A stretch of DNA of 64,000 bases from Pirellulales bacterium. Lineage in GTDB: Bacteria; Planctomycetota; Planctomycetia; Pirellulales; JAEUIK01. Positions 19,981-34,045 of the stretch are shown piece by piece. The first letter of the stretch is position 1. Each line of letters starts with the position of its first letter. The stretch is from positions 75,208 to 139,207 of the forward strand of contig JBFXAH010000011.1 of assembly GCA_050184475.1 (NCBI GenBank), in the 5' to 3' direction. The notes under the pieces are model-generated. The model was not told the DNA's origin and made no database searches. It worked only from the letters and a program-made list of their open reading frames with translations. The position numbers were made by a program, and so were the translations under genes.

Positions 19981-20445
19981 TTATCGTAACAGCGGTCGCA
20001 AATCGACCGGTTTCTTCGCGCCAGTCACGAATTCTACGAATAACCCGATCCTGCTCAACTCCTGCTGGATTCTGGCCTGCGAGGTTGGCGCACCTGCGGA
20101 CGAGATAATCAGGCCCTTTACTCTGGTTCGCGGTGGCCTGAACTCGGCGGGCAATCTAGGGACAACGGCTTGAAAAGTGGACGTAAGCTGGCTCGCTGCC
20201 CTCTCAAAATCTCTTCCCTTGAACTCGACAAAGATCAGCAAGGCTGCCTTCGTCCCTTCTCGATAAAAGACCAGCGCGTCGCAGACTCTGCCCTGCAGTC
20301 CCAACGCCGCACGGCACTCTTCACAATCCATGCGAAAGAACAAGATGCGTTCCGTAACGCGAGGCTCGATCCTAATGCCTACCCTGTTCTCGCTAAGGGA
20401 AGTCCCGTTGTGGAAGCAGTTCCACACCAGACTATGAAAGACCAT
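19981..20445 (-). CDS. 154-aa partner of the island ATPase; putative PD-(D/E)xK-fold nuclease with an N-terminal Cys/His cluster
   Basis: ORF 19981..20475. The ATG at 20445 (or TTG at 20475) overlaps the ATPase stop by 14 (or 44) nt. The motif RVCDALVFY-x9-ALLIFVEFKG fits the D...(D/E)xK layout. CFH...CEEC lies upstream. Low GC. No family recognised by eye. Confidence 0.5.
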   Translation of the reverse strand: MVFHSLVWNCFHNGTSLSENRVGIRIEPRVTERILFFRMDCEECRAALGLQGRVCDALVFYREGTKAALLIFVEFKGRDFERAASQLTSTFQAVVPRLPAEFRPPRTRVKGLIISSAGAPTSQARIQQELSRIGLFVEFVTGAKKPVDLRPLLR

Positions 20446-21841
20446 GTTCCCCGGCCCCGTTTTCCACGCTAGCAATCTTGGAGTACAGGTTGGCGACGTA
20501 GTCCGATTCGTCAGCGAAACTCTTCACGTCGATAATCCCATCGTCAACGATGTCCTTGACTTCGCCGTCCTCTTGGAACAAGTACGCGGCGACTTTGTCT
20601 GGGGCCAAGAAGGCGTCGGCGCTGCCGAGCTTGGTCTCGCCGGCCAGCTTGGCTTGAGCCTTGCGCGACTTTGCCCCGGCAGCCATCATGTTGTTCAAAT
20701 GATCGACAAAATACGGACTGTGCGTGGTGACGACGATCTCCAGGCCGGCGTTGACGAGCATGGCGAAAAGCTCGACAAGTTGAAGTTGGGCTTCTGGATG
20801 CGCGTTCATTTCAGGCTCGTCGATGACAAGAACGTCGCCCGGTACGGCAAGATGTCGCAGAATCATGTCGAGACCGGCGAGAGAACGGACGAGCGACGCG
20901 ACGGCGTGCATCCGCAGTTTTGGGCCATCGCTCGCGAAGTACTCGAAGGTCGCGCCGCCTTTGTCGGCGCGACTTGAGCTTACGCTTCCACCCAGTACTT
21001 GGTGCTCCAACACCGAGGAAGCGGTGTTGATTGCCGATTCTGTTAGCTTTGGACGCACATACCAGAGCAATCTCAATAGATTGATGAAATCGGCAGTTGG
21101 TTCGTTGTAGATTGCAGACAAATCACGGGTCATCGACCTTTCGAGAAAAAGGGGACTAAATGCGACGAGAGCTTTCCTTTCAGCAGGTAAAGCAATTACT
21201 CGCTGCTTCGTCGAAACGAGCATTCGACTCAGCCAGGACTCCACGGTCGCACGACCTTGATCGCGGTTAGTTGCCCCAGTGCTATCCCGCCAAGACTCAC
21301 GAAACATAGGTTCGCCTTCAGCAGTGCCGAGTGCGCTTACTGTGAGCTCCCCTGTTGGCGGGAACCTAGTTATTACTAGTCGACGGATCGTTCCGTTTTG
21401 CAGAAATTCGTCGCGCGGCAACAGCAAATCTGTGAATGACTCGCTCAGATCCTCTTCCGGAACTGCCAGCGTCCTTGCGAGTGCGGCGCCCTGAAGTTTG
21501 AGCGAAACTTCCAACGGCAATTTTAATCCGCGAAGAAGATCATCTCGAGAAACTACTACCGATATCGAGTCTTCCGACTCGGTCGCCATCGACTTCAATA
21601 CCTGAGAACTGTTGGCCGAGGTTGTCCTGTTGAGATAGTCCGCAAAAACAGAGAGTCGTGCGGTCTCGCTCCTGTACCCGACGCCGACACCAATGCTCGT
21701 CGAAATGTCCCTGAGCAGCCCATACAGCGCGTAGGCCGTCCAGGTCTTATTGGTATTGTTCTTGCCAATGAAGACCGTGAACGGCTTGATTTCCAGCTCG
21801 GCCGATTTGATCCGGCCAAGATTCGAGACTTTAAGTTTCAA
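20432..21841 (-). CDS. AAA_15/AAA_21-type ABC (SMC/OLD-like) ATPase, defence-system-type
   Basis: 469 aa. N-terminus MKLKVSNLGRIKSAELEIKPFTVFIGKNNTNKT (variant Walker A). Long insert, then the signature-like ASLVRSLAGL, Walker B VLVIDEPEMNAHP and H-loop VVTTHSPYF. TTG start. GC is clearly lower than in flanking genes. Confidence 0.85.
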   Translation of the reverse strand: MKLKVSNLGRIKSAELEIKPFTVFIGKNNTNKTWTAYALYGLLRDISTSIGVGVGYRSETARLSVFADYLNRTTSANSSQVLKSMATESEDSISVVVSRDDLLRGLKLPLEVSLKLQGAALARTLAVPEEDLSESFTDLLLPRDEFLQNGTIRRLVITRFPPTGELTVSALGTAEGEPMFRESWRDSTGATNRDQGRATVESWLSRMLVSTKQRVIALPAERKALVAFSPLFLERSMTRDLSAIYNEPTADFINLLRLLWYVRPKLTESAINTASSVLEHQVLGGSVSSSRADKGGATFEYFASDGPKLRMHAVASLVRSLAGLDMILRHLAVPGDVLVIDEPEMNAHPEAQLQLVELFAMLVNAGLEIVVTTHSPYFVDHLNNMMAAGAKSRKAQAKLAGETKLGSADAFLAPDKVAAYLFQEDGEVKDIVDDGIIDVKSFADESDYVANLYSKIASVENGAGEHGLS

Positions 21842-24142: not shown

Positions 24143-24648
24143 ACGCCCAGCGGCCGATCGATCAGGCCGAGCCAGGGCGCGTGGCAGCCATCGACTTCGG
24201 CACGGTGCGAATCGGCATCGCCATCTCCGATCGCCGGCGGACCCTGGCTTCGCCGCTGGAGACTTACACGCGCGCCGGTCGCCAGGCCGATGCCGCGCGG
24301 TTCGTGCGACTCGTCAAGGACGAAGGCGTACGCCTGTTCGTCGTCGGACTGCCGGTGCACCTCGACGGAAACGAGAGCGCCAAGTCGCGCGAAGCGACCG
24401 CCTTCGGCCGCTGGCTGCAAGAGACGACCGGTGTGCCAGTCGAGTACTTCGACGAACGTTTTACCACGGCGCTGGCCACCGAACAGCTCGCGCCGGCCGG
24501 CTTCACCAAGAAGCGGCAAAAGAAACGGCTCGACGCCGTCGCGGCCCAGGTGCTGCTGACCGCCTGGCTCGAGGCCAGCCCACACGAGCGCGGCCGCACG
24601 GCCGGGCCCCACACGGGGCCGCAACTCGATCCGCTCGACGATCGCTGA
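24139..24648 (+). CDS. ruvX: Holliday junction resolvase-like protein RuvX/YqgF
   Basis: VAAIDFGTVRIGIAISD...LFVVGLPVHLDGNESAKSREATAFGRWL...PVEYFDERFTT is the YqgF family pattern. ORF trimmed to the ATG at 24139. Confidence 0.85.
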   Translation: MNAQRPIDQAEPGRVAAIDFGTVRIGIAISDRRRTLASPLETYTRAGRQADAARFVRLVKDEGVRLFVVGLPVHLDGNESAKSREATAFGRWLQETTGVPVEYFDERFTTALATEQLAPAGFTKKRQKKRLDAVAAQVLLTAWLEASPHERGRTAGPHTGPQLDPLDDR

Positions 24649-24732
24649 CGCTCGCTTAGTGATACAACTAGGTTCGATTCAAACACAAAGTTCATCAAGA
24701 ACACCAAGCTCGCCCCGACTGAGGCGATCGCA

Positions 24733-25608
24733 ATGCCCGAGAACAAACTGATCGTCGGTTGCGGATACTTGGGGGCGCGGGTCGCGCGGCGCTGGCTGGC
24801 AACCGGCGAGCGGGTGTGGACCGTCACGCGCTCGACCGAGCGTGCCGCTAGGTTGCGCGACGAAGGCCTCGAGCCCGTCGTCGCCGATGTCACCGCGCCG
24901 GCGACGCTCGCCGCGCTGGCGAAGCTGCCGCCGCTCGACACCGTGCTCTACGCAGTCGGCTTCGATCGCCGCGCGACACGCACGCGCCGCCAGGTTTACG
25001 TCGAGGGATTGCGGAACGTGCTGACCGCGCTGGCCAGCGACGTGCGGCGATTCCTCTATATCAGCACCACGGGCGTCTACGGCCAGCATCACGGCCAGTG
25101 GGTGAACGAAGAAACACCCTGCGCGCCAACGCGCGAAGGGGGGCAAGTCGCGCTGGAGGCCGAGCACTTGCTCCTCGCCAGCGCGCTGGGCAACCGTTCG
25201 ATTCGTTTGCGGCTGGCAGGCTTGTACGGACCGGGGCGCGTGCCACGCCAGCAGGACTTGGCAGCCGGCCAGCCGATCGCCGCGCCGCGCGATGGTTACC
25301 TGAATTTGATTCACGTCGACGACGCCGTCGATACGGTGCTGGCCGCCGAGCGCTTGAACGTGCCGCCGCCACGGTTGTACGTGGTCGCCGACGGGCAGCC
25401 ACCGCTGCGCCGCGATTACCTGGCCGAGGTGGCGCGTCTCGTAGGCGGACCGGCGCCGACGTTCGTCGAGCCGGCGGCCGATTCGCCCACGGCCGAGCGC
25501 GCCGACGGCGACAAGCGCGTCGATAGCGCGCAACTGCTCGCCGAATTGAATCTGCGTCTCAACTATCCGTCGTATCGCGAAGGGCTGGCGGCAATTCTCG
25601 CGACCTAA
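24733..25608 (+). CDS. NAD(P)-dependent epimerase/dehydratase-type SDR oxidoreductase
   Basis: N-terminal Rossmann motif LIVGCGYLGARVARRWL. FLYISTTGVYG and a later YG/PGR segment are typical of extended SDRs. Confidence 0.75.
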   Translation: MPENKLIVGCGYLGARVARRWLATGERVWTVTRSTERAARLRDEGLEPVVADVTAPATLAALAKLPPLDTVLYAVGFDRRATRTRRQVYVEGLRNVLTALASDVRRFLYISTTGVYGQHHGQWVNEETPCAPTREGGQVALEAEHLLLASALGNRSIRLRLAGLYGPGRVPRQQDLAAGQPIAAPRDGYLNLIHVDDAVDTVLAAERLNVPPPRLYVVADGQPPLRRDYLAEVARLVGGPAPTFVEPAADSPTAERADGDKRVDSAQLLAELNLRLNYPSYREGLAAILAT

Positions 25609-25821
25609 GCGAATGGCAAATACGGGGCTCGCGGGCTCGGCCAGTGCGGCTTAAGCTCATCTGCGGCGCAGCGCGGTGCTCGCGCCGCCGGGGCCCGCGA
25701 GCTAGCCGGTTGTCGCCGCGCGGCGGGCATTCTAGAATCCGGCCAGAGGTCGCGAGCGATCGTCCACGCCGCCGCCGGGCATCGTTTCGCGCGGTTATCT
25801 CGACGGAAGGCCACCATCCAC

Positions 25822-26604
25822 ATGCTCAAACGGAAGCCCGTTTTTCCCAATGTGATCGAGATGAACTACCAGGCGGGCGAGCGCCTGGGCTGCAACGTTT
25901 ATCTGGTCTTCGATCGCAATGAATGGCTCCTGATCGACATCGGCTTCGAAGACACGGTCGAAGAAATCGTCGAGCTGATCCGGCAGATGGATTTTCCGCT
26001 GTCGGCCTGCAAGGGGCTGATTGCCACGCATGCCGATGTCGATCACGTGCAGGGTTTGGCCAAGGCGCGGCAACTGCTCAAGGCCCCCACCTACGGGCAT
26101 CGCCTGGCGGCCGAGCCGCTGGCCACCAGCGACCCGGTGAAGACCTACGCCCAGATCGCCGCGCAAGGCATCTACCTCGACATGCCGAGCGTCAAGCTCG
26201 ACCACCTGATCGACGAGGGGGACCGCCTCACGGTCGGCGGGATCGAGCTCGAAGTCTGGCACACGCCCGGCCACACCGATAGCCAGTTGGCGTTTCGCCT
26301 GGGGGATCTGCTCCTAAGCGGCGACAACATCTACCGCGACGGTTGCGTGGGGGTGATCGACGCCCACCACGGCAGCGACATCGCCGCCTTCGTCAAATCG
26401 CTCGAACGGATTCGGGCCAGCGACGTCCAGTGGCTGCTGCCGAGCCACGGCCCGATCTTCCGCAAAGACAACGCGCTTTTGGATCGCACGATCGAGCGGG
26501 TGCGCGGCTATCTGCACATGGCCGACTTCGGCACCTGCGCGACCGACTGGCCGCTGATGCGCGACTGGGATCGCGAACTGGCCGAAGGTCGCATGCCCAA
26601 GTAG
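25822..26604 (+). CDS. MBL-fold metallo-hydrolase
   Basis: The [13 protein letters not shown] motif (HxHxDH-type), then [10 protein letters not shown] and LLSGDNIY..., are typical of the metallo-beta-lactamase fold. Confidence 0.85.
26496..26604 (+). repeat. 109-bp direct repeat, copy 1 (authentic 3' end of the MBL gene)
   Basis: 26496..26588 is 93/93 identical to 28326..28418. The last 16 bp differ at 3 positions (26589, 26592, 26598). All three are third-codon positions and synonymous. Confidence 0.95.
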
Positions 26605-26678
26605 CTGCCGATGCCAGGGCTGGCTTTTTCAGTCGCCGTTGTTGGCCGCACTCAATCACCCACGGCTGGCCCGCGCTC

Positions 26679-28142
26679 TTAGGGCCGGGCGACCTGGTAG
26701 CGCCACAGATCGCTCGGCGGCTGCGCAAATCCCTCGGCGGCGAACCAGTCGGTCGGATAGACGCGCACCGGCAAATCGTCCGGATCGGGCGCCGCCAGCG
26801 TCATCAAGAAGGCCACGAGCTCCGCCCGCCGACCGGCCGGCAACTGCGCGAATCGATTGGCCGACGCGTACGCCTCGCCACCATGCCAGGCGATCGCCTC
26901 GGCGATCGTGGCCGCGCGGCCGTCGTGCAGGTAGGGGCCCGAGTCGCGCACGCCCCACAGCGGCGGCGTCTTCCACTCCTGCTGCAGTACTCGAAGTTCG
27001 CCAGGCGAGATCGGGAAATCGGGCGTCAACTCCCCGCCATAATAGGTCGGAATCGACGTAGATGTCGGGCGCAGCTCCTGCGGCGCCGGCGACGGGTCGG
27101 ACAACCTCACGCCCATGTCGTGCAATAACAGGTCGCTGTAGATCCCTTCGATCGACGCCAGTTTCGGGCGATGGCAGACCGCGCAGCCCAACTTGCCAAA
27201 CAATTCCTCACCGTGCCGGACGCGGATGGCCTCTTGTTTGTCGGCCGGCTCCAACCGCCGGGGCGCCGGCAAGCTGGCGATAAAACCGGTCAGATCATGA
27301 CAATCTTCGCTGCTCAAATCAAAGCCGCGCTGACGAACGAATTCTTGAACTTGTTCCGGAACATCGCCATTAAAAACGGGCTCCGGCTCGAGTCCTAGTT
27401 CCGCGGAGCATGCACCCCGGACAAAATCGTTCAACGTGTTCGACTGCCCGCGCCAGCCAAATTTTCCCAGCACGCGACCGGTCACCTGGCGATGCTCGCG
27501 ATGCTGCTCTTCGGCGATTTGCGCGAGATAACTGGTCGTGACCTGGTCGATCAATCCCAAGCCAAAGAGCGGAGTCGTGTTGCGACTCGTCCAGGTCAAC
27601 GAGAGATCCTTAGACACCATCCGCTTGTGCGGCACCAAATGCTGGCTGCCAACGACGTCGTCAAGCGCCAGCGCGCCAGGCAACCAGGTACCATCCGGAG
27701 CCAGGTCGATGCCCAGCAATTGTTCTCGCTGCGATCCATAATCCTGCGCAGCCGTGTTGTAGCGATGCAGCACGATCGTCCAGCCGCGGCGGAATCCTGC
27801 GTGCAGCTTGATCAATCGCTGCCGCACTGGCCGGCGCTTCTGCGGATGCGTGGGCGCTTGAGCCGTGACCAGGTCGACATTCTTTGCCAACGGGCCGGCG
27901 CCGCCGACCCCACCCTGATCGTGGCAGGCCACGCACGAGCGATCGTTGAACAACGGCCCCAACCCATCAACCATGCCCAGCGGACGTTGCCCCGGTTGCC
28001 ACGAGCGCTCGAAGAGCTCTTGCCCGCGCAAGACAGCTTCCGCCTGGGAATCATCCTGCGACCAGCCGAGCTGCGGCAAGCCGAAGAGCACCAAGGCGGT
28101 ACAGATCCCGCCAGAACACAACGCACGCCGTAAGAGCAGCAT
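26679..28142 (-). CDS. di-haem oxidoreductase, DUF1111/DHOR (putative peroxidase) family
   Basis: ORF 26679..28205, trimmed to the ATG at 28142 (signal peptide MLLLRRALCSGGICTALVLFG). Two CxxCH haem sites (SCVACHDQGGVGG and GCAVCHRP). C-terminal PPLWGVRDSGPYLHDGRAATIAEAIAWHGGEA is typical of DUF1111. Confidence 0.8.
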   Translation of the reverse strand: MLLLRRALCSGGICTALVLFGLPQLGWSQDDSQAEAVLRGQELFERSWQPGQRPLGMVDGLGPLFNDRSCVACHDQGGVGGAGPLAKNVDLVTAQAPTHPQKRRPVRQRLIKLHAGFRRGWTIVLHRYNTAAQDYGSQREQLLGIDLAPDGTWLPGALALDDVVGSQHLVPHKRMVSKDLSLTWTSRNTTPLFGLGLIDQVTTSYLAQIAEEQHREHRQVTGRVLGKFGWRGQSNTLNDFVRGACSAELGLEPEPVFNGDVPEQVQEFVRQRGFDLSSEDCHDLTGFIASLPAPRRLEPADKQEAIRVRHGEELFGKLGCAVCHRPKLASIEGIYSDLLLHDMGVRLSDPSPAPQELRPTSTSIPTYYGGELTPDFPISPGELRVLQQEWKTPPLWGVRDSGPYLHDGRAATIAEAIAWHGGEAYASANRFAQLPAGRRAELVAFLMTLAAPDPDDLPVRVYPTDWFAAEGFAQPPSDLWRYQVARP

Positions 28143-28325
28143 GGCGACCTCCCGGTTGCACTCCCCGATTCCCAAGCAACCCGAGCCGTAGTTCCTAACC
28201 GGCAATCTACCGCTGCCCGGTCAACCGCGAAAGGTTTTTTTAGAATGTCGAATTCGTAACGCTCGCGCGGCCGAGCTCGAGATCGGGGGGCGGGCAGCTC
28301 GGTGCCGCGCCTCACCCTGAGATGC

Positions 28326-28434
28326 GCGGGTGCGCGGCTATCTGCACATGGCCGACTTCGGCACCTGCGCGACCGACTGGCCGCTGATGCGCGACTGGGA
28401 TCGCGAACTGGCCGAAGGGCGGATGCCTAAGTAG
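28326..28434 (+). repeat. 109-bp direct repeat, copy 2 (orphan MBL 3'-end fragment abutting nhaA)
   Basis: See copy 1. It keeps the reading frame ...EGRMPK* with only synonymous changes, and overlaps the nhaA stop codon (28427..28429) by 8 nt. Confidence 0.95.
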
Positions 28435-29749
28435 AAGCTTCGCGGCGCAGCGCGAAGGCGAAAATTATTCCGCTTCCCAGCAGCGCGCTCAGTGCAGAGC
28501 CTGCCAGAATGCCGTTCTTGCCGGCGACCAACATTTCGCCCGACCAGGCCAGCCCGGCGATGAAAATCGACATGGTGAAACCGACTCCCGCCAGGCAGCC
28601 CGCACCGCTGAGCAGGCCCCACGTGACCTGCGGTGGCAAGCGACCCGCGCGCAGCGCGACCGCCAGCATACTGAAGCCGACGATGCCCAGCGGTTTGCCC
28701 GCGACGAGCGCCACGGCCACGGCCAGCGCCAGGGGATCGAGCGCTTGATTCAACTCCAGTGCGACTCCGGCGTTTGCCAAGGCAAAAATCGGCATGATGG
28801 CAATCGCCACCCAGGGCTGCACGGCCGACTCCAGCCGATGCATCGGGGCGACCGTCTCGCGCGCCGCGGCGGTCATGGTGTCGACGTCCCGCTGGTGATG
28901 CTCGTGTATCTCCGCGGAGTCGGCCCCTTCGTCGCCGCGCAGTCGACCGGCGATGCCTTCGATTATCCCCAGCAAATCGCGAGCGGGCAGTAACGGCTCA
29001 GCGGGCGTAAACGCACCCAGCAGCACACCGGCCACGGTCGGATGCACGCCCGATCGCAAGAACGCCAGCCAGATCCCCGCGCCGAGCACGATATAGGGAA
29101 AGTAACTTCGCACACCCAACCGATTGAAGGCCAGGACCAGGGCAAAGCCGATCGCGGCCAGCATCAAGTATTCCGGCGCCAGGTTCGACGTGTAGACCAC
29201 GGCAATAACGAGCACCGCGCCGATGTCGTCGACAATGGCCAGCGTCAGCAAAAACACTTTCACCGACCGCGGCACGCGGCGACCCAGCAGCGCCAAGATC
29301 CCCACGACGAAGGCAATATCCGTGGCCATCGGCACTCCCCAGCCACCGACCCCCGGCTCGCCCCATTGCCAAATCAAAAACACCGTCGCCGGCACCACCA
29401 TGCCGCCCAGCGCCGCGGCGGCGGGCAGCACCGCCCGGCGCCAACCGCGCAGTTCGCCAAACAGAATCTCGCGCTTGATCTCCAGCCCGACGCTGAAGAA
29501 AAACACGGTCATTAAGCCATCGTTGATCCAATGCAACAGCGATAGTCGCAGCGAGAAAGTCCCCACCTCAATTCCCACGGGGAGCTCCCAGAAAGCCTCG
29601 ACTTCGTGCCGCCAGGAGGAATTGGCCAGGAACAAGGCAACCAACGTGCAGAGGATCAGCGCGAACCCGCTTGCCGACTCCAATTGGCGCCGGCTGAGAT
29701 CGGGGAACGTAAGTCGTCTGCGGCTATCACGTTTCATGCGATCTTGCAT
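28427..29749 (-). CDS. nhaA: Na+/H+ antiporter NhaA
   Basis: WINDGLMTVFFFSVGLEIKREILFGEL plus a 12-TM body are typical of NhaA. The start is at the ATG at 29749 or 29737; the track ORF extends to 29848. Confidence 0.9.
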   Translation of the reverse strand: MQDRMKRDSRRRLTFPDLSRRQLESASGFALILCTLVALFLANSSWRHEVEAFWELPVGIEVGTFSLRLSLLHWINDGLMTVFFFSVGLEIKREILFGELRGWRRAVLPAAAALGGMVVPATVFLIWQWGEPGVGGWGVPMATDIAFVVGILALLGRRVPRSVKVFLLTLAIVDDIGAVLVIAVVYTSNLAPEYLMLAAIGFALVLAFNRLGVRSYFPYIVLGAGIWLAFLRSGVHPTVAGVLLGAFTPAEPLLPARDLLGIIEGIAGRLRGDEGADSAEIHEHHQRDVDTMTAAARETVAPMHRLESAVQPWVAIAIMPIFALANAGVALELNQALDPLALAVAVALVAGKPLGIVGFSMLAVALRAGRLPPQVTWGLLSGAGCLAGVGFTMSIFIAGLAWSGEMLVAGKNGILAGSALSALLGSGIIFAFALRREAST

Positions 29750-30353
29750 CGGGCAGAGGGACGAACGCTGATGAGCTCCTATCAAAGAGCCACGGGGTGC
29801 TAATTCCGGACCAAACCGGCATGTTTTCGGGCTTGGTTTGGCCTGCACTGGCGCTAGCAGCCTGTGGAAGACACCGCAGGCGGCGCCATCGCAGGAAAGC
29901 GGGCCGCGAGCCGCGTCCGCTTACTGTAGCGCCGCGTGGGCTGTTGTCGAGCGTCGCCGGCGCAGAACTCGCCCCGCAGGGCGGAAGTCAATAGCCAGGC
30001 GGAACCCTTGGCGTAGTCGCGCCTCGCAATGTTGGCACACTAGCCCGACGCGCAGCGAGGGTCTGGGGACTAACCGGTGATGGGTTAGTCGGTCGGCGAC
30101 AACCGATTCGATTCTCTGCCGATGATCCGGCGGCGACACTCGGAGTGAAGCACTTCGTGGAGTCGCCCTTTGCAACGGCGCGTCGGCGAGGGCAAGTTAT
30201 CCCCCCTCCCCTTGTGGACTTCGACAGGCTCAGTCGAACGAAGAGGGTGGCCGGCCGACGATAGGTTGGCCTGGCTGCCCGGGCGGAGCGAAGCCAAACC
30301 GGTGAGGCCATCGGCCCGCGAGTCGTTCGACGTAGCAACGCTCGCGCGGCAGA

Positions 30354-30710
30354 ATGATTGGCATGGACGAGAAGCCCAAACACCGCTGGTTTCAGTTTCG
30401 GCTGAGCACGTGGTTCGTGCTGGTGGCGATTCTCGCCTGGGTGATGGCGCTTTGGCCGTACTTTGATGAGTTCGAAGTGCTTGTGGAGTTGACCAAGGCC
30501 ACGGTTCGTCCCAGCACAGGCTGGATCGATCCGCCATACGACATTCCGTACGGGGGACTCGGCCAATTCCTTTGGTTTTGGAAGCTAAAACTGTCGGTTG
30601 AGCAACTTGAGTGGCCGGCCGTCGCCTTAGCCGCCTTCCTCGCCTGGAAAGCCGCCTGGGCGCTCGGCCCGCGAGTTGTTCGACGCCGCAGGGCCCGCAC
30701 GGCAGAATGA
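30354..30710 (+). CDS. hypothetical membrane-anchored protein (leader-family gene 1)
   Basis: MIGMDEKPKHRWFQFRLSTWFVLVAILAWVMALW. Shares the upstream leader and N-terminal anchor motif with the next three genes. Lower GC. Confidence 0.5.
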   Translation: MIGMDEKPKHRWFQFRLSTWFVLVAILAWVMALWPYFDEFEVLVELTKATVRPSTGWIDPPYDIPYGGLGQFLWFWKLKLSVEQLEWPAVALAAFLAWKAAWALGPRVVRRRRARTAE

Positions 30711-31666
30711 ATGGCATGAATGTGCAAACGCAAAAGCGCCGACTTCGGTACACGTTGCGGGCGCTGCTCGCCGCGCTGACGGCCGTTTGTCTTCTGCTCG
30801 GTTGGTGGTCGAACAACGTCTACCGCCAACAGCGCGCCGCGGCGACCCTCCGGTCGTTGGGGATTCACGTGGGCTACGAATCGGCTCCAACCGTGTTGAC
30901 GTTTCCGGTTCCGGCCTGGTTTGGCAATCGGATCGGCACTGATTTTTTCCAAAAGGTCGTCGGTGTCGAGCAGGTCAGGAGCAATCGGGCCGCGAAAGCC
31001 AGGGAAGTGGTTCCGGCGCTTCGAGAGTTTCCCGCCCTGACGTCGCTACGTTTGATGCTCCCAGACCTGACTGATTCCGACATCCAGACGATCGGAGCTC
31101 TGCAAGAACTCAGGTCCTTATCACTCGTCGTTGATCAAGCACACCAGGGGCAGAACAACGCCCGCCTGCGATTGGCCGACCTACGCGGCCTCGCGAAACT
31201 CAGATCACTCACGATATCTGGGTGGTCCATCGGCCGAGAAGATGTCGTTGTTATCAGTCGCTTGCCAAAGCTGTCGGAGCTGTCGTTGATCGACACGGAT
31301 GCCACCGACGATACCTTGGCAGCACTTGGCGACCTGCCGCAGCTCACATCGCTATCCATTGGAGGCCGCAACAGGATCACGGATCAGGGGCTGGCACACG
31401 TCGCCAGCTTGACCTCTCTCTATCGATTGGTTGTCGACTGTCCCCAAGCAACGCCGGTCGGTATCGAACCGTTGTTGAATTTGCACAATCTCGAGTCCCT
31501 TGAGATCGACGTCCGTTCCAGCTCGAGCGTCGAATGGAACCGAGCGCTGCTGGCACGCTTTGAAGAAGCGCTGCCCAATTGCGAGCGGCGCTGGAGCATG
31601 CCTTGGTGGTTCTGGCGAGACAACGACTCGATGCCGGAAATCGCTCCGTTTGACTCCATCGACTAA
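30707..31666 (+). CDS. membrane-anchored leucine-rich-repeat (RNI-like LRR) protein (leader-family gene 2)
   Basis: The ATG at 30707 overlaps the gene 1 stop (ATGA). MNGMNVQTQKRRLRYTLRALLAALTAVCLLLGWW. Repeated LxxLxxLxL units follow (LTSLRLMLPDLTDSDIQTIGALQELRSLSL, LAKLRSLTISG, LPKLSELSLIDTDATDDTLAALGDLPQLTSLSIGG, LTSLYRLVV). Confidence 0.7.
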   Translation: MNGMNVQTQKRRLRYTLRALLAALTAVCLLLGWWSNNVYRQQRAAATLRSLGIHVGYESAPTVLTFPVPAWFGNRIGTDFFQKVVGVEQVRSNRAAKAREVVPALREFPALTSLRLMLPDLTDSDIQTIGALQELRSLSLVVDQAHQGQNNARLRLADLRGLAKLRSLTISGWSIGREDVVVISRLPKLSELSLIDTDATDDTLAALGDLPQLTSLSIGGRNRITDQGLAHVASLTSLYRLVVDCPQATPVGIEPLLNLHNLESLEIDVRSSSSVEWNRALLARFEEALPNCERRWSMPWWFWRDNDSMPEIAPFDSID

Positions 31667-31737
31667 CGCCGGACGCTCGATCCACCGAATACGCCGGTTG
31701 CAGAGCTCGGCGCCACTGCCGCGGCAGAAAGACGCGC

Positions 31738-32157
31738 ATGGCCGATCCACCCAAACGCCCCTGGTTGCAGTTTCGCTTACGCGACGCGTTCATCGCCGTG
31801 ACGGTTGCAAGCGTCGTCGGCGCAACGGTGCAGGCACTGGGAGTGCGCTATTCGATTCACATCAGCATGGGAATCGGCGCATTGGCGACGATCTGGCTGA
31901 GCCCGCGCTCGTTTCTTGCTTTGAGCAGTCTAAGTGCGGTCGGAACCGCTGTTGCTGGGTTGCTGGCATGCTTCGCAGTATTCTTGTCGGCCCCAGGCAA
32001 CTGGCCTATGGGATGGCTGCCATTCGCCAGCGTTGGAATTGTAGGTGTCGTCGCCGGAGCGCTCCTTGGCGCTATCGCCTGGGGTCTGTTCTCCGCTAAG
32101 GCTGCGCTCGAAACCGCGGCCAAACCCGCCGCGCAACGTGGGCGGTTGGCCGACTAG
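31738..32157 (+). CDS. hypothetical polytopic membrane protein (leader-family gene 3)
   Basis: MADPPKRPWLQFRLRDAFIAVTVASVVGATV. Has 3-4 hydrophobic segments and shares the leader/anchor motif. Confidence 0.5.
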   Translation: MADPPKRPWLQFRLRDAFIAVTVASVVGATVQALGVRYSIHISMGIGALATIWLSPRSFLALSSLSAVGTAVAGLLACFAVFLSAPGNWPMGWLPFASVGIVGVVAGALLGAIAWGLFSAKAALETAAKPAAQRGRLAD

Positions 32158-32187
32158 GGATGCGCCGTGTTGCAGCGGCGCGGCGGA

Positions 32188-33455
32188 ATGACAAGCATGC
32201 ACGGGAAGCTGCCGAGGCTGCGACCGGTATTTTCGCTACGCACCTTGGTGCTGGCAATCGCGCTGGCAGCGTGCGTGTTCGGTTTGCCGCAAGGGAAGCC
32301 ACCCTGGGAGTTGGGCTTCACGATAAAGGGAGATTTCAGCGACGCGTCATTCTCGCCCGACAGGCGGATGTTGGCGGCGACCTATCGCTGGGAACCACAG
32401 CTCATGGTTTGCGACGCCCGCTCGGGCAAGGAGCTGTACTTGCTGGGCGATCGGTTGCTTTCCCGCCATGGCGGAGCGGCAAGTCAACGCACCTGCTTTC
32501 TCGATTCGAACTCGCTGGTGTTTCTTTGCGGCGAGAAGGGGGAGCTGCAACTCTGGGATTTGACGGCCAAACGCTTACTCGATCAGGCCGATTTGGGCGT
32601 AATCGAGGGTTTCTGCGCGAAGACGGGGCGGGCGGTCACGCATCCCGCAGGTGATCAGTCCAATGACGTTTGGGATCTCACGACGACGAAGTCACTTTTA
32701 AGGCGCCAGAAGGTTGACGTTGGCGATCATGCATACTGGGCGACTTTCAGTGACGACGGTTCGTCACTGCTAGTGCAAACGCGAAACCAGTTCGCTTGGG
32801 TTCCGCTGGAAAGCGACGCGCCCATCGAGTACTTCGATATACGGCGAAAGCCGGACTATCGCGGCCATGTGTCGATCGCGCCGAAGCACGACAGGTTTGT
32901 CGCCTGTGATTCGAGTGGAGCCTATCTATATGAACGTGGCAGGCTGCAAACGGTGCGGAAATTGACGACCTCCGCTTGCCAACAGAGTGCGTTCAGTCCC
33001 GACTCACGCCAATTGGCCATCGCTCAAAGCGGAAACGGTGCGAGTCGTGCAGGGGGCATTCAGATTGTCGGTTTGGACTCAGGTCGATCGCTATTTGTCG
33101 ATCGCGGCGCAATTGTGTTAGCGTCCAGTTCAATAGTTCGGGGTCCCGAATACTAGGGTACGGAAATGATCGCTGGTTTGTGCTCGACGCTGCTACTGGA
33201 AAAACGCTTCATGAATCGTCTCTCCTGGGGAAGGCGGGCTACCCAGTCCTGAGTCCTGTCAAAATGACGAACGACGGCAAAACAGTAGCGTTCATCGGCG
33301 ACTCTGAGCTCAACGTCTGGCATCGCAACTATCCTGAGCACTGGCAACCTTGGTTTCGCGGGCTCTATTTTGCGCTGACTGGCCTGGCGGCACTGGCGTT
33401 CGTGGTCAGCCTGGTGATCGACCATCGTCGTGGACGGGCGCATCGCGGCCTGTGA
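32188..33455 (+). pseudogene. membrane-anchored WD40-like beta-propeller protein, apparently frameshifted near 33105..33122 (leader-family gene 4)
   Basis: Frame 1 (to the stop at 33156) contains WD-like blades (ASFSPDRRMLAA, LQLWDLTAKRLL, ATFSDDGSSLLV, SAFSPDSRQLAIA). The -1 frame (ORF 32976..33455) continues with VSVQFNSSGSRILGYGNDRWFVLDAATGKTLH...NDGKTVAFIGDSELNVWH and a C-terminal TM segment. Confidence 0.55.
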
Positions 33456-33708
33456 ACGGTGCATGCAGCAATCCGCCAAACGCCCGGGTGACCGCGCTTG
33501 TCGTGGGCAGGAATTCACTATCCTCAAATTTCTCAGATTACGCAGATGAGTTGCTCGCGGACTCGTCTGCTTTGGCAATCTGCGTTAATCGGCGAAATCT
33601 GCGGACCACAAAGCTGCATTTCTTTGCGACTTGGCGACTTGGCGCGAGATCCACGTTCCTTCGCGCGGCGAGATCGCCTCTGTCCCTGCTGCCCATACCC
33701 CAACACAC

Positions 33709-34045
33709 CCGAGCGGTGGCAATCCGGCCCCGAGTTGTGCCGTCTATTCGAGTTCAGGTCCAATAACAAGACACCAGGACGCAAATGGTTGACCCGGACG
33801 CAAACCGGACGGTCACCCGGACGCAAATCGAGCTGCGAGTTTCATGCCCCGCGTTGTGCCGTGTAACTTGAGTTCGGGTCCAATACCAAGACACCCGGAC
33901 GCAAATGGCTGACCCGGACGCAAACCGGACGGTCACCCGGACGCAAAACCAGCGGCGTGTTACACGCCCCAAGTTGTGCCGCCGATTCGAGTTCGGGTCC
34001 AATACCAAGACACCCGGACGCACCCGGACGCAAAATTACGGACCA
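33709..34045 (+). repeat. tandem repeat, ~120-bp unit x ~2.7, containing a nested 13-mer ACCCGGACGCAAA array
   Basis: Units start with GTTGTGCCG at 33734, 33853 and 33973 (periods 119 and 120). There are 8 copies of CC(C/A)GGACGCA, plus 2 CCGGACGG and 1 ACGGACC. It lies in an ~800-bp gene-free gap. Confidence 0.9.

What the first reader, a model, noticed from the sequence alone, without database searches (positions are those of the whole stretch)
30311..32215. Four consecutive genes share a conserved 5' leader, start context and N-terminal basic-FQFRL-TM anchor, but carry unrelated C-terminal domains
DNA around the four starts:
- ctcgcgCGGCAGAATGAttgGCATGgac (gene 1, 30341..).
- cgcaCGGCAGAATGAatgGCATGaat (gene 2, 30695..).
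- gccgCGGCAGAAAGAcgcGCATGgcc (gene 3, 31718..).
- gcgCGGCGGAATGAcaaGCATGcac (gene 4, 32178..).
- Genes 1 and 2 also share about 30 bp further upstream (tcggcccgcgagtCgttcgacg versus tcggcccgcgagtTgttcgacg). For gene 2, that stretch lies inside the 3' end of gene 1.

Encoded N-termini:
- Gene 1: KPKHRWFQFRLSTWFVLVAILAW.
- Gene 2: QKRRLRYTLRALLAALTAVCLLL.
- Gene 3: PKRPWLQFRLRDAFIAVTVASVV.
- Gene 4: LPRLRPVFSLRTLVLAIALAACV.

Downstream parts are unrelated: a small protein, an LRR domain, a polytopic membrane protein and a WD40-like propeller. The whole block (29.85-33.5 kb) has a lower GC (about 50-55% in the lines counted).

This looks like a cassette array, with a fixed leader plus anchor module fused to variable interaction domains. 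Its function is unknown. The motif may be a lineage-specific sorting or anchoring signal.
Basis: partly seen in the sequence, partly recalled or inferred. Interest (0 to 1): 0.6.

Follow-up and report, generated by a model that had tools for sequence, protein, structure and literature searches.

The report
Shared junction of membrane-cassette gene array
Four neighbouring genes in a Pirellulales (Planctomycetota) genome start with the same 19 bases because they sit in a decaying head-to-tail array of a lineage-specific, undescribed family of small membrane proteins (two conserved membrane helices around a hypervariable exposed loop); the shared bases are the joint between cassettes and carry a promoter-like box placed to start the message at the ATG.

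Summary
The DNA observation is real. CGGCAGAATGAnnnGCATG occurs four times (0.03 expected), only before these four genes.

It is not a 5' leader. It is the cassette junction of a Pirellulales-specific family with no Pfam, NCBIfam, PDB, PADLOC or PHROG match (460 cluster representatives). Family members are about 115 aa: a basic N-terminus with helix RRWFQFRLSTWFVLVAILAW, a hypervariable loop of 16-187 aa, then helix WPALALAAFLAWKAAW and an Arg-rich tail.

At tandem junctions the preceding cassette ends inside a fixed hexamer (xCA-GAA-Tnn, giving P/S/T/A-Glu-stop) 6-7 nt before the next ATG. Stand-alone paralogues carry TAGAAT there. The terminal Glu codon is GAA in 29 of 31 genes, against about 1:1 internally. 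The constraint is therefore on the nucleic acid, and I read the hexamer as a -10 box for leaderless transcripts.

Only gene 1 is a full member. Gene 3 keeps the N-module. Genes 2 (LRR) and 4 (frameshifted beta-propeller) belong to other anchored families that recur in a 20-kb metagenomic array. Cassette relics lie upstream of gene 1.

The biological role is inferred only: a periplasm-facing, polyimmunity-like binding repertoire. GC is 60.6%, not 50-55%.

The parts
29824..29862 (+). Relic fragment of a family C-module (translates to ..LVWPALALAA)
   Evidence: Family HMM positions 78-90 in a six-frame scan. It lies in the roughly 500-nt 'non-coding' gap upstream of gene 1.
29928..29972 (+). Relic fragment of a family C-module (SAAWAVVERRRRRTR)
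   Evidence: Family HMM positions 95-109, 6.9 bits, in a different frame from the previous fragment.
30230..30357 (+). Decayed 3' end of a former cassette (..GEAIGPRVVRRSNARAAE-stop, with an internal stop) ending in junction 1
   Evidence: Direct repeats D5 and D6 match the 3' end of gene 1. The translation parallels the gene 1 C-terminus LGPRVVRRRRARTAE-stop.
30347..30365 (+). Junction 1: CGG-CAGAAT-GATTGGC-ATG. The hexamer is at 30350-30355. Its T starts the relic's TGA.
30363..30710 (+). Gene 1: canonical family member, 115 aa. It has the N-module (TM1), a 48-aa loop, the C-module (TM2) and an RRRR tail.
   Evidence: 134.8 bits to the family HMM over positions 1-111. Identical to NCBI AB7O68_13480. 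AF2 gives helices 7-30, 34-47 and 66-110 at pLDDT 63.5.
30700..30718 (+). Junction 2: the last codons of gene 1 (GCA GAA TGA = A-E-stop) overlap hexamer CAGAAT (30703-30708), 7 nt before the gene 2 ATG at 30716. An in-frame ATG at 30707 overlaps the stop (ATGA).
30716..31666 (+). Gene 2: N-anchored leucine-rich-repeat protein. Not a family member.
   Evidence: Pfam LRR_14 6.7e-12, above its cut-off. About 0 bits to the family HMM. Homologous over its full length, anchor included, to L001:14739-15674 (25% identity, 2e-17).
31722..31740 (+). Junction 3 (relic): hexamer CAGAAA at 31725-31730, with no stop retained, 7 nt before the ATG. Gene 2 ends 70 nt upstream.
31738..32157 (+). Gene 3: family N-module (MADPPKRPWLQFRL..) followed by an unrelated hydrophobic body with three to four TM segments.
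   Evidence: Family HMM positions 1-24, 14.6 bits. The head matches the same-genome paralogue P0008, MADPPKRRWFQFRL. Hydropathy. No Pfam or NCBIfam match.
32181..32199 (+). Junction 4 (relic): hexamer CGGAAT at 32184-32189. The TGA it starts is out of frame with gene 3, which stops at 32155-32157.
32197..33156 (+). Gene 4, first part: N-anchor plus beta-propeller-like domain, ending at a premature stop.
   Evidence: PD40 at 21.0 bits (cut-off 20.9). 26% identity, 5e-17, to L001:17138-18418 including the anchor. The L001 protein hits beta-propeller models.
33100..33455 (+). Gene 4, continuation in another frame: further propeller blades, a C-terminal TM helix and an RRGRAHRGL tail.
   Evidence: ORF 32976-33455. 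Strong TM segment at residues 63-87 of 33165-33455. The L001 homologue has the same C-terminal TM plus RRR end.

Best explanation
The block is a small, partly decayed tandem array of a Pirellulales-specific cassette family.

The canonical cassette (gene 1) encodes an inner-membrane helical hairpin. A basic N-terminus and helix 1 (RRWFQFRLSTWFVLVAILAW) and helix 2 (WPALALAAFLAWKAAW) with an Arg-rich tail stay on the cytoplasmic side. They hold a hypervariable loop of 16-187 aa in the periplasm.

Cassettes are joined head to tail by a conserved junction. The upstream reading frame ends inside a fixed hexamer (CAGAAT, whose T begins the stop codon) 6-7 nt before the next ATG. The four-fold 'leader' is this junction. 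It is intact after gene 1 and survives as a relic before genes 1, 3 and 4.

I infer that the hexamer is a -10 promoter box that starts a leaderless mRNA at the A of the ATG. In tandem copies the tight stop-to-start spacing would also allow re-initiation.

The conserved helix-coding ends and the junction give paralogues homology for unequal crossing-over and gene conversion. That would produce duplication, decay, mosaic genes and capture of other anchored genes (LRR gene 2, propeller gene 4).

The biological role is inferred, not shown. My best guess is a repertoire of membrane-anchored, periplasm-facing binding modules that protects against envelope-acting toxins or phage, in the manner of polyimmunity loci.
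For: Shown:
- The motif is four-fold and specific.
- The stop of gene 1 lies inside the gene 2 motif, and a decayed copy of the gene 1 3' end precedes gene 1.
- Family architecture across 128 proteins: mean pairwise identity is 0.64 for the N-module, 0.20 for the loop and 0.54 for the C-module. K+R against D+E is 565:115 in the N flank, 511:106 in the C tail and 670:708 in the loop.
- There are 460 cluster representatives.
- Tandem same-strand arrays exist: 19 family segments in L001, 11 in L046, 6 in L007. Many are N-only or C-only fragments.
- Of 90 distinct family starts, 40 have a hexamer matching TAGAAT at 5 of 6 positions or better, 6-8 nt before the ATG. These include TAGAAT x17, mostly stand-alone, and CAGAAT x18, mostly at array junctions.
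- TAnnnT at that position occurs in 11 of 39 family starts against 3 of 50 control genes. nAnnnT occurs in 26 of 39 against 8 of 50 (p = 2e-6).
- A diverged lineage keeps different TA-type boxes at the same place.
- The base before CAGAAT varies, giving P, S, T or A, while the terminal Glu codon is GAA in 29 of 31 genes. Internal Glu codons are 184 GAA to 169 GAG (p = 2e-6). 24 of the 31 are followed by an ATG 3-8 nt after the stop.
- Three orthologues of gene 1 sit in three different contexts. Their first seven codons and upstream DNA are swapped. The loop is under purifying selection (dN/dS 0.29-0.49).
- Genes 2 and 4 have full-length homologues in the L001 array.
Against: - There are no RNA data, so the promoter and leaderless reading is an inference.
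- No -35 element was found.
- The four window hexamers lack the T at -12. Two also lose A-11 (gene 4) or T-7 (gene 3), so they would be weak promoters at best.
- Helix 2 is only moderately hydrophobic: a mean Kyte-Doolittle value of about 1.2 by my own hand calculation, with a conserved Lys. The 1.6-threshold hydropathy scan did not detect it.
- The AF2 model has low confidence (pLDDT 63.5).
- No toxin, secretion, recombinase or reverse-transcriptase gene lies in the 64-kb window.
- Recognised immunity domains (SUKH) appear only in L001. An RHS gene lies near only one locus, L028.
- The dS contrast between the loop and the modules rests on 5-10 substitutions per segment.
Confidence: 0.6

Rival explanations
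1. The junction is only a translational-coupling signal or a duplication scar. The array is one operon, ribosomes terminate at the stop inside the hexamer and re-initiate 4-5 nt later, and the hexamer has no promoter function.
For: - 24 of 31 family genes ending in Glu-stop are followed by an ATG 3-8 nt after the stop.
- Gene 1 and gene 2 overlap in ATGA fashion.
- The window hexamers are poor -10 matches, and no -35 was found.
- Relics upstream of genes 1, 3 and 4 show that scars persist.
Against: - Stand-alone family genes with no upstream cassette carry a perfect TAGAAT, or another TAnnnT, at the same 6-8 nt distance.
- Coupling does not require a fixed hexamer or an invariant GAA codon.
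- A scar would not stay fixed while neighbouring bases vary.
Confidence: 0.25
2. The two conserved ends are sorting signals rather than permanent anchors. The N-module would be an export signal (RRxF, Tat-like, or Sec) removed at the A-x-A-like AMA site. The C-module (motif, then helix, then Arg cluster) would be a tail anchor or a signal for a dedicated sorting enzyme. The variable segment would then be displayed or released.
For: - The family consensus KRRWFQF contains RRxF.
- Helix 1 is often followed by A/G-M-A, then x-R-P.
- The C-module has the three-part layout of PEP-CTERM or LPXTG-type signals: motif, helix, basic cluster (layout as described in PMC1569441).
- There are many paralogues per genome with variable 'cargo'.
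Against: - No Tat-signal, PEP-CTERM or other sorting-signal model in Pfam or NCBIfam matches at E <= 1.
- The first Arg is replaced in gene 1 (HR) and gene 3 (RP) and in other members.
- The hydrophobic stretch is about 19 residues long with a mean Kyte-Doolittle value of about 2.3 (my hand calculation). That is typical of a membrane helix, not a signal-peptide core.
- Signal peptides are normally poorly conserved, whereas helix 1 is the best-conserved part (0.64).
- Six or more residues follow the Arg cluster.
- The LRR genes carry the N-anchor without any C-module.
Confidence: 0.12
3. The similarity is trivial: generic signal peptides and start contexts of this organism, with nothing specific to these genes.
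For: The N-termini of genes 2 and 4 match the family only in a generic way, basic residues followed by a hydrophobic stretch.
Against: - The 19-nt motif occurs four times against 0.03 expected, and nowhere else in 64 kb.
- No other ORF in the window has the N-terminal pattern or the hexamer-ATG arrangement.
- The family modules are conserved across many metagenomes.
- The anchors of genes 2 and 4 are conserved in their L001 homologues.
Confidence: 0.02
4. The loops are diversified by a dedicated mechanism, either a diversity-generating retroelement or integron-type site-specific cassette capture.
For: The layout of conserved ends flanking hypervariable centres resembles cassette systems.
Against: - No reverse transcriptase, integrase or transposase lies in the 64-kb window.
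- No inverted repeats or attC-like structures occur at the junctions.
- There are no Rfam hits.
- Orthologous loops are 75-78% identical between distant samples and under purifying selection. They are not hypermutating.
Confidence: 0.02

Closest known systems
Polyimmunity loci of polymorphic toxin systems (Zhang, Aravind et al. 2012, PMC3482391)
   Same: Same-strand tandem arrays of many small genes that are functionally equivalent rather than subunits of one machine. They are often far from any toxin gene, and are homogeneous (paralogues) or heterogeneous. LRR, HEAT and SUKH proteins are listed there as components. The L001 array mixes family members with LRR, HEAT, beta-propeller and SUKH genes.
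   Different: No toxin gene or recognised Imm domain lies in the window. The family matches no Imm, Pfam or PADLOC model. Members are membrane hairpins with conserved helices and a variable loop. The conserved junction with an embedded promoter-like box is not a described feature of such loci.
Two-helix membrane immunity proteins, e.g. Imm-CdiI of E. coli EC93 ('two transmembrane helices' in PMC3482391). Colicin and bacteriocin pore-former immunity proteins are cited from my own knowledge.
   Same: Small inner-membrane proteins with few helices that act in the membrane and are encoded next to variable partners.
   Different: There is no sequence relation and no adjacent toxin. Here the helices are the conserved part and the loop is hypervariable.
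Orphan cdiA-CT/cdiI and rhs-CT arrays (from my own knowledge, not checked in a paper here)
   Same: A conserved stretch repeated in front of each variable cassette provides homology for recombination and cassette exchange. Fragments and relics are common.
   Different: Those cassettes are toxin tips plus immunity genes, recombining with a large upstream gene. Here each cassette is a complete small gene with its own start.
Plasmodium two-TM variant families RIFIN, STEVOR and PfMC-2TM (analogy only, from my own knowledge)
   Same: Multigene families with two membrane helices flanking a hypervariable exposed loop, conserved ends and a short basic cytoplasmic tail.
   Different: Eukaryotic, unrelated in sequence, and serving antigenic variation in a host. 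There is no evidence here for switching of expression.
Leaderless bacterial genes with a -10 box (TAnnnT) just upstream of the start codon. Papers surfaced by title and abstract but not opened: Zheng et al. 2011, PMC3160421; Cortes et al. 2013, PMC3898074; Deinococcus deserti, PMC4007540.
   Same: A TA-type hexamer lies 6-8 nt before an ATG, there is no Shine-Dalgarno sequence, and the start codon is ATG.
   Different: Not documented for Planctomycetota in the library searched. Here the box is embedded in the last codons and stop of the preceding gene. The array-type box is CAGAAT, not TAnnnT.
C-terminal protein-sorting signals (PEP-CTERM/exosortase, Haft et al. 2006, PMC1569441; LPXTG)
   Same: The C-module has the layout short motif, hydrophobic helix, Arg cluster. 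It recurs in many paralogues per genome on variable proteins.
   Different: No model matches. Residues follow the Arg cluster. The N-terminus is even more conserved than the C-terminus. No candidate sorting enzyme was identified.

Membership tests
Pirellulales two-helix hypervariable-loop family (unnamed; profile built here from alignment A3) | N-module: basic head plus RRWFQFRLSTWFVLVAILAW | tested here: met
   Met by gene 1 (part of a 134.8-bit full-length match) and by gene 3 (positions 1-24, 14.6 bits). Genes 2 and 4 score about 0 bits, so the feature is not met by them.
Pirellulales two-helix hypervariable-loop family (unnamed; profile built here from alignment A3) | C-module: WPALALAAFLAWKAAW plus an Arg-rich tail | tested here: met
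   Met by gene 1 only. Relics occur at 29824-29862, 29928-29972 and 30230-30357. Absent from genes 2 and 3. Gene 4 has an unrelated C-terminal TM plus RRGR tail.
Polyimmunity locus | Tandem same-strand array of paralogous or functionally equivalent small genes | tested here: met
   Four same-strand genes plus relics in the window. There are 19, 11 and 6 family segments in L001, L046 and L007.
Polyimmunity locus | Contains recognised immunity-protein domains (SUKH, SuFu, Imm families) | tested here: not met
   None in the window genes. A SUKH gene is present only in the L001 array.
Polyimmunity locus | Link to a polymorphic toxin, either adjacent or elsewhere in the genome | tested here: inconclusive
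   No toxin or secretion gene lies in 64 kb. One family gene lies about 1 kb upstream of an RHS protein in L028. The rest of the genome was not available.
Leaderless gene with -10 box | TAnnnT hexamer ending 6-8 nt before the start codon | tested here: inconclusive
   The window hexamers are CAGAAT, CAGAAT, CAGAAA and CGGAAT, 7 nt before the ATG, and none is TAnnnT. At family level, TAnnnT at that spacing was found at 11 of 39 family starts against 3 of 50 control genes. In the larger set of 90 distinct starts, my tally of the hexamer table gives about 27 TAnnnT boxes, 17 of them a perfect TAGAAT.
Leaderless gene with -10 box | ATG start codon, no Shine-Dalgarno sequence, transcript 5' end at the A of the ATG | not testable with these tools
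   All four window genes, and the family starts examined, begin with ATG and have no GGAGG-like sequence upstream. Mapping the transcription start needs RNA data.
Type IV prepilin-like N-terminal signal | Gly at -1 and Glu at +5 of the cleavage/methylation motif (G-F-T-L-x-E) | tested here: not met
   Neither residue is present in any of the four N-termini or in the family consensus. No N_methyl model hit.
Twin-arginine (Tat) signal peptide | Invariant RR in S/T-R-R-x-F-L-K, a weakly hydrophobic core, and a match to Tat-signal models | tested here: not met
   The family consensus has RRWF. Gene 1 has HR, gene 3 has RP and gene 4 has none. The core is about 19 residues with a mean Kyte-Doolittle value of about 2.3 (my hand calculation). 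No Pfam or NCBIfam Tat model hit at E <= 1.
PEP-CTERM/LPXTG-type C-terminal sorting signal | Motif, TM helix and basic cluster at the extreme C-terminus, with a cognate sorting enzyme | tested here: inconclusive
   The layout resembles it, but no NCBIfam sorting-signal model matches. Co-occurrence with an enzyme was not tested because the whole genome was not available.
Integron cassette array / diversity-generating retroelement | Linked integrase with attC sites, or reverse transcriptase with a template repeat | tested here: not met
   No such genes lie in the window. There are no inverted repeats at the junctions.
Leucine-rich repeat proteins (gene 2) | Pfam LRR model above its gathering score | tested here: met
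   LRR_14 at 45.3 bits against a cut-off of 40.

The most novel reading that the evidence does not exclude
The family is a previously undescribed bacterial system of variable exposed proteins. A conserved two-helix membrane scaffold displays a hypervariable periplasmic loop. It is encoded in recombining head-to-tail cassette arrays in which each cassette's promoter (-10 box, leaderless start) is built into the stop codon of the cassette before it. It would serve as a polymorphic recognition or immunity repertoire in Planctomycetota and would recruit other anchored binding domains (LRR, beta-propeller, HEAT) into the same arrays.
Probability: 0.25. Interest if true: 0.7.

Novelty: new variant of a known kind. 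Interest (0 to 1): 0.5.

Why it matters
- It defines an unannotated, lineage-restricted multigene family: 460 clusters at 50% identity, with no Pfam or NCBIfam model. The architecture is clear enough to test directly for topology, transcript starts and strain-to-strain turnover.
- If the hexamer is a working -10 box, this is a compact design in which one gene's stop codon and the next gene's promoter share six bases. It would also be evidence for leaderless expression in Planctomycetota, where translation-initiation signals are poorly understood.
- If the arrays are protective repertoires, they would extend the polyimmunity concept to membrane-anchored, periplasm-facing proteins in a phylum with an unusual cell envelope.
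- On the practical side, gene callers mis-place starts here. NCBI calls gene 2 thirteen codons short, and they miss the relics.

Tried and rejected
- **Looser motif hits:** the hits at 12887 and 54676 are chance, lying inside unrelated coding sequence.
- **Known models:** Pfam, NCBIfam, PADLOC, PHROGs, a PDB sequence search and Rfam gave nothing for genes 1, 3 and 4, nor for the junctions. No tRNA lies nearby.
- **N-module profile search:** a 46-aa N-module profile against the 5.8-billion-protein set returned only short fragments of 36-81 aa. It did not reveal domain architectures.
- **Gene 2 homologue search:** this gave only the protein itself plus generic LRR hits. The informative homologues came from direct comparison with L001.
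- **NhaA synteny:** a metagenome scan with the flanking NhaA gene, meant to compare the NhaA to ABC-2 interval between strains, found nothing.
- **Phage origin:** a viral-contig scan found no family member.
- **Structure:** the AF2 model of gene 1 had too low confidence (pLDDT 63.5) for a fold search.
- **Canonical promoters:** a search for full sigma-70 promoters (-35 plus -10) found none on the + strand of the array. Inspection of upstream regions showed no shared -35.
- **Literature:** text searches for the motif, and for planctomycete N-terminal motifs, found no description.

Full report

Reading 29700-33800 and listing ORFs shows four same-strand genes:
- Gene 1: ATG at 30363, ends 30710.
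- Gene 2: ATG at 30716, ends 31666.
- Gene 3: 31738-32157.
- Gene 4: ATG at 32197. It is interrupted by a stop at 33154-33156 and continues in another frame to 33455.

The pattern CGGCAGAATGAnnnGCATG matches at 30347, 30700, 31722 and 32181 with 0, 0, 1 and 1 mismatches. The expected number is 0.03 and no shuffle reached four. Looser matches elsewhere lie inside unrelated sequence. A regular-expression scan of all six frames finds the N-terminal pattern only in these genes.

The extra 5' similarity between genes 1 and 2 is also real: 91 nt at 74%, plus a further 31 nt.

Two details in the finding are wrong. GC of 29850-33500 is 60.6% against 64.8% for the window, not 50-55%. The 'FQFRL' module is present in only two of the four proteins (section 3 below).

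**2. What the 'leader' is**

The TGA that ends gene 1 (GCA GAA TGA, giving A-E-stop) lies inside the motif in front of gene 2. Translating the DNA upstream of gene 1 in the frame of the TGA in its own motif gives ..GEAIGPRVVRRSNARAAE-stop, with an internal stop. This parallels the C-terminus of gene 1..ALGPRVVRRRRARTAE-stop. Gene 1 is therefore preceded by the decayed 3' end of another copy. A six-frame profile scan finds two more C-terminal fragments further upstream, at 29824-29862 and 29928-29972. The shared 'leader' is the junction between cassettes of a tandem array.

**3. The family**

Gene 1 is identical to a hypothetical protein of a Pirellulales MAG (AB7O68_13480). It has 76 relatives in the 5.8-billion-protein set, all unannotated. 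Four of them sit at adjacent locus tags on another contig of the same MAG (AB7O68_16615, 16625, 16630, 16635). An exhaustive profile search of 1.84 billion representatives finds 460 clusters at E <= 1e-3 and 293 at E <= 1e-10. Some are fused double or triple copies. No Pfam, NCBIfam, PADLOC, PHROG or PDB sequence matches.

Alignments show three parts:
- an almost invariant N-terminus, M..P.RRWFQFRLSTWFVLVAILAWAM;
- an unalignable middle;
- a conserved C-terminus, WPALALAAFLAWKAAWAV..RRRR.SAAPE.

Over 128 proteins the mean pairwise identity is 0.64, 0.20 and 0.54 for these three parts. The middle is 16-187 aa long with a median of 48. Both ends are strongly basic (K+R to D+E of 565:115 and 511:106). 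The middle is neutral (670:708).

By the positive-inside rule (established knowledge) this indicates a hairpin with both ends in the cytoplasm and the variable loop in the periplasm. This is an inference. Helix 2 is only moderately hydrophobic and the AF2 model is weak: pLDDT 63.5, with helices at 7-30, 34-47 and 66-110.

A family HMM scores the window genes as follows:
- Gene 1: 134.8 bits.
- Gene 3: 14.6 bits, over the first 24 residues only. Its head MADPPKRPW matches paralogue P0008.
- Genes 2 and 4: about 0 bits.

**4. Arrays elsewhere**

A JGI contig (L001) carries 19 family segments in 20 kb on one strand. They are interleaved with HEAT, WD40/beta-propeller, LRR, DUF1080 and SUKH genes. 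Across 61 loci (700 kb) there are 153 family segments, always co-oriented within a locus. Many are N-only or C-only fragments.

In GTDB representatives the family is confined to a few Pirellulales and Planctomycetaceae MAGs, with up to 10 loci per genome. No viral contig has it.

Gene 4 is homologous over its full length, anchor included, to L001:17138-18418 (26% identity, 5e-17). Gene 2 is homologous in the same way to L001:14739-15674 (25%, 2e-17). The L001 propeller also ends in a TM helix plus RRR. Anchored LRR and propeller genes are therefore recurrent passengers of these arrays. They are not the family module fused to new domains.

Flanking genes differ from locus to locus: NhaA and ABC-2 here, Lnt, YebC and an RHS protein elsewhere.

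**5. The junction is constrained at the nucleic-acid level**

In L001 the junctions read ..gcg-CCA-GAA-TAG-agct-ATG-GAC... Across family starts, a hexamer lies 6-8 nt before the ATG:
- Of 90 distinct starts, 40 match TAGAAT at 5 of 6 positions or better. The spacing is 6 nt in 32, 7 nt in 7 and 8 nt in 1.
- Seventeen are a perfect TAGAAT. These are mostly stand-alone genes with MR.. heads and no upstream cassette.
- Eighteen are CAGAAT. These have MD.. heads and include 8 of the 14 tandem junctions.
- Other variants keep the TAnnnT form: TATGAT, TAAAAT, TAAACT, TACGAT, TAGGAT and TATACT.
- A diverged array (L046) has TAGAAC, TATCGT, TACGAT and TAGTTG at the same place.

Against 50 annotated non-family genes in the same loci, TAnnnT at this position occurs in 3 of 50 controls and 11 of 39 family starts. 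nAnnnT occurs in 8 of 50 controls and 26 of 39 family starts (p = 2e-6). One control, a PadR gene, has a perfect TATAAT-N6-ATG, so this arrangement exists in the lineage.

At array junctions the base before CAGAAT varies, giving Pro, Ser, Thr or Ala, while the hexamer stays fixed. The terminal Glu codon is GAA in 29 of 31 genes. Internal Glu codons are 184 GAA to 169 GAG (p = 2e-6). Twenty-four of the 31 are followed by an ATG 3-8 nt after the stop.

A fixed hexamer at a fixed distance from an ATG, with A at position 2 and T at position 6, is the signature of a -10 box driving a leaderless mRNA. That is established knowledge; the relevant papers (PMC3160421, PMC3898074, PMC4007540) surfaced but I did not open them. 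I adopt this as the most likely reading.

Several cautions apply. No -35 element was found. No RNA data exist. The window's hexamers (CAGAAT x2, CAGAAA, CGGAAT) are weak versions. Termination followed by re-initiation is a reasonable alternative or additional mechanism.

**6. Evidence for recombination**

Three orthologues of gene 1 (75-78% protein identity) lie in three unrelated contexts: an array here, a stand-alone gene in L029, and a different array position in L001. Their DNA homology starts after codon 7 and ends exactly at ..CCAGAATAA. The head and upstream region are swapped. The window copy has the MD-type head with CAGAAT. The others have MR-type heads, and L029 has TAAACT-N6-ATG.

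Their loops are under purifying selection, with dN/dS of 0.29-0.49. The loops show lower dS (0.17-0.29) than the flanking modules (0.33-0.79). This fits exchange within the conserved modules, but it rests on few substitutions.

L001:8730 carries a family N-module fused in front of a second anchor. No reverse transcriptase, integrase or transposase is present in the window.

**7. Function**

Nothing here shows the function directly. The shown facts are these:
- membrane anchoring, with a predicted periplasmic loop or domain;
- extreme paralogue diversity combined with within-type conservation;
- birth-and-death turnover;
- co-location with protein-binding repeat domains, and in L001 with a SUKH immunity-type gene.

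These features fit best the concept of polyimmunity loci. That concept explicitly lists LRR, HEAT and SUKH components and arrays remote from toxins (PMC3482391). I give this role about 0.3.

A sorting-signal reading of the two modules (Tat-like RRxF, A-x-A, motif-helix-Arg cluster) is not excluded. It is disfavoured by the length and hydrophobicity of helix 1, by its exceptional conservation, and by the lack of any model match.

**8. Verdict**

The feature is a new, undescribed variant of a known kind: tandem variable-cassette or polyimmunity-like arrays. Its unusual point is a conserved junction in which a stop codon and a promoter-like box overlap.

Noticed in passing
window 33727-34022 (extending to about 34035): A 120-nt tandem repeat of 2.5 copies at 87% identity. 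It contains eight copies of a 15-nt sub-repeat, CACCCGGACGCAAA(T/C/A). It lies between the end of the array and the ABC-2 permease gene. No Rfam match.
   Followed up: partly
window 19981-21841 (- strand): A low-GC island (53-57%) holds a 469-aa ATPase that matches the PADLOC model PD-T4-4_A (2.4e-48; also OLD-, AriA- and GajA-like). A 164-aa partner ORF has no match. This is probably an anti-phage defence pair.
   Followed up: partly
window 33100-33160: Gene 4 is broken by a frameshift with a stop at 33154-33156. This is either a pseudogene or an assembly error. Its L001 homologue is intact at 426 aa.
   Followed up: partly
L030 (GCA_050251235.1, JBFWND010000025.1) = window 24363-31209: A second assembly of the same organism is 100% identical over 6847 nt, but its contig ends inside gene 2. 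The array is therefore a break point for the assembler.
   Followed up: partly
L028:7530-7552: A PadR-family gene is preceded by a perfect TATAAT followed by 6 nt and then ATG. This suggests that leaderless-type promoters exist outside the family in this lineage.
   Followed up: no
L001:8730-9959: A 409-aa LRR protein carries the family N-module (MDEQPNKRWFRFRLSTWFVLVA) directly in front of a second anchor (RYRLRTLFTFLFVISAA). This looks like a recombination product.
   Followed up: no
one search hits P0110-P0114, P0143 and others: Family proteins of 220-311 aa contain two or three complete family units in one reading frame. These are read-through fusions of adjacent cassettes.
   Followed up: no
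L028:10001-20288: A family gene lies about 1 kb upstream of an RHS/YD-repeat protein of more than 3281 aa. This is the only locus seen near a polymorphic-toxin-type gene.
   Followed up: no
window 30707-30718, 30354-30365, 32188-32199: Three of the four genes have two in-frame ATGs two codons apart (M-x-G/S-M). The first overlaps the hexamer. The same MAGM and MTGM pattern occurs in the distant array L046. NCBI's start for gene 2 is instead 13 codons downstream, at a TTG.
   Followed up: partly
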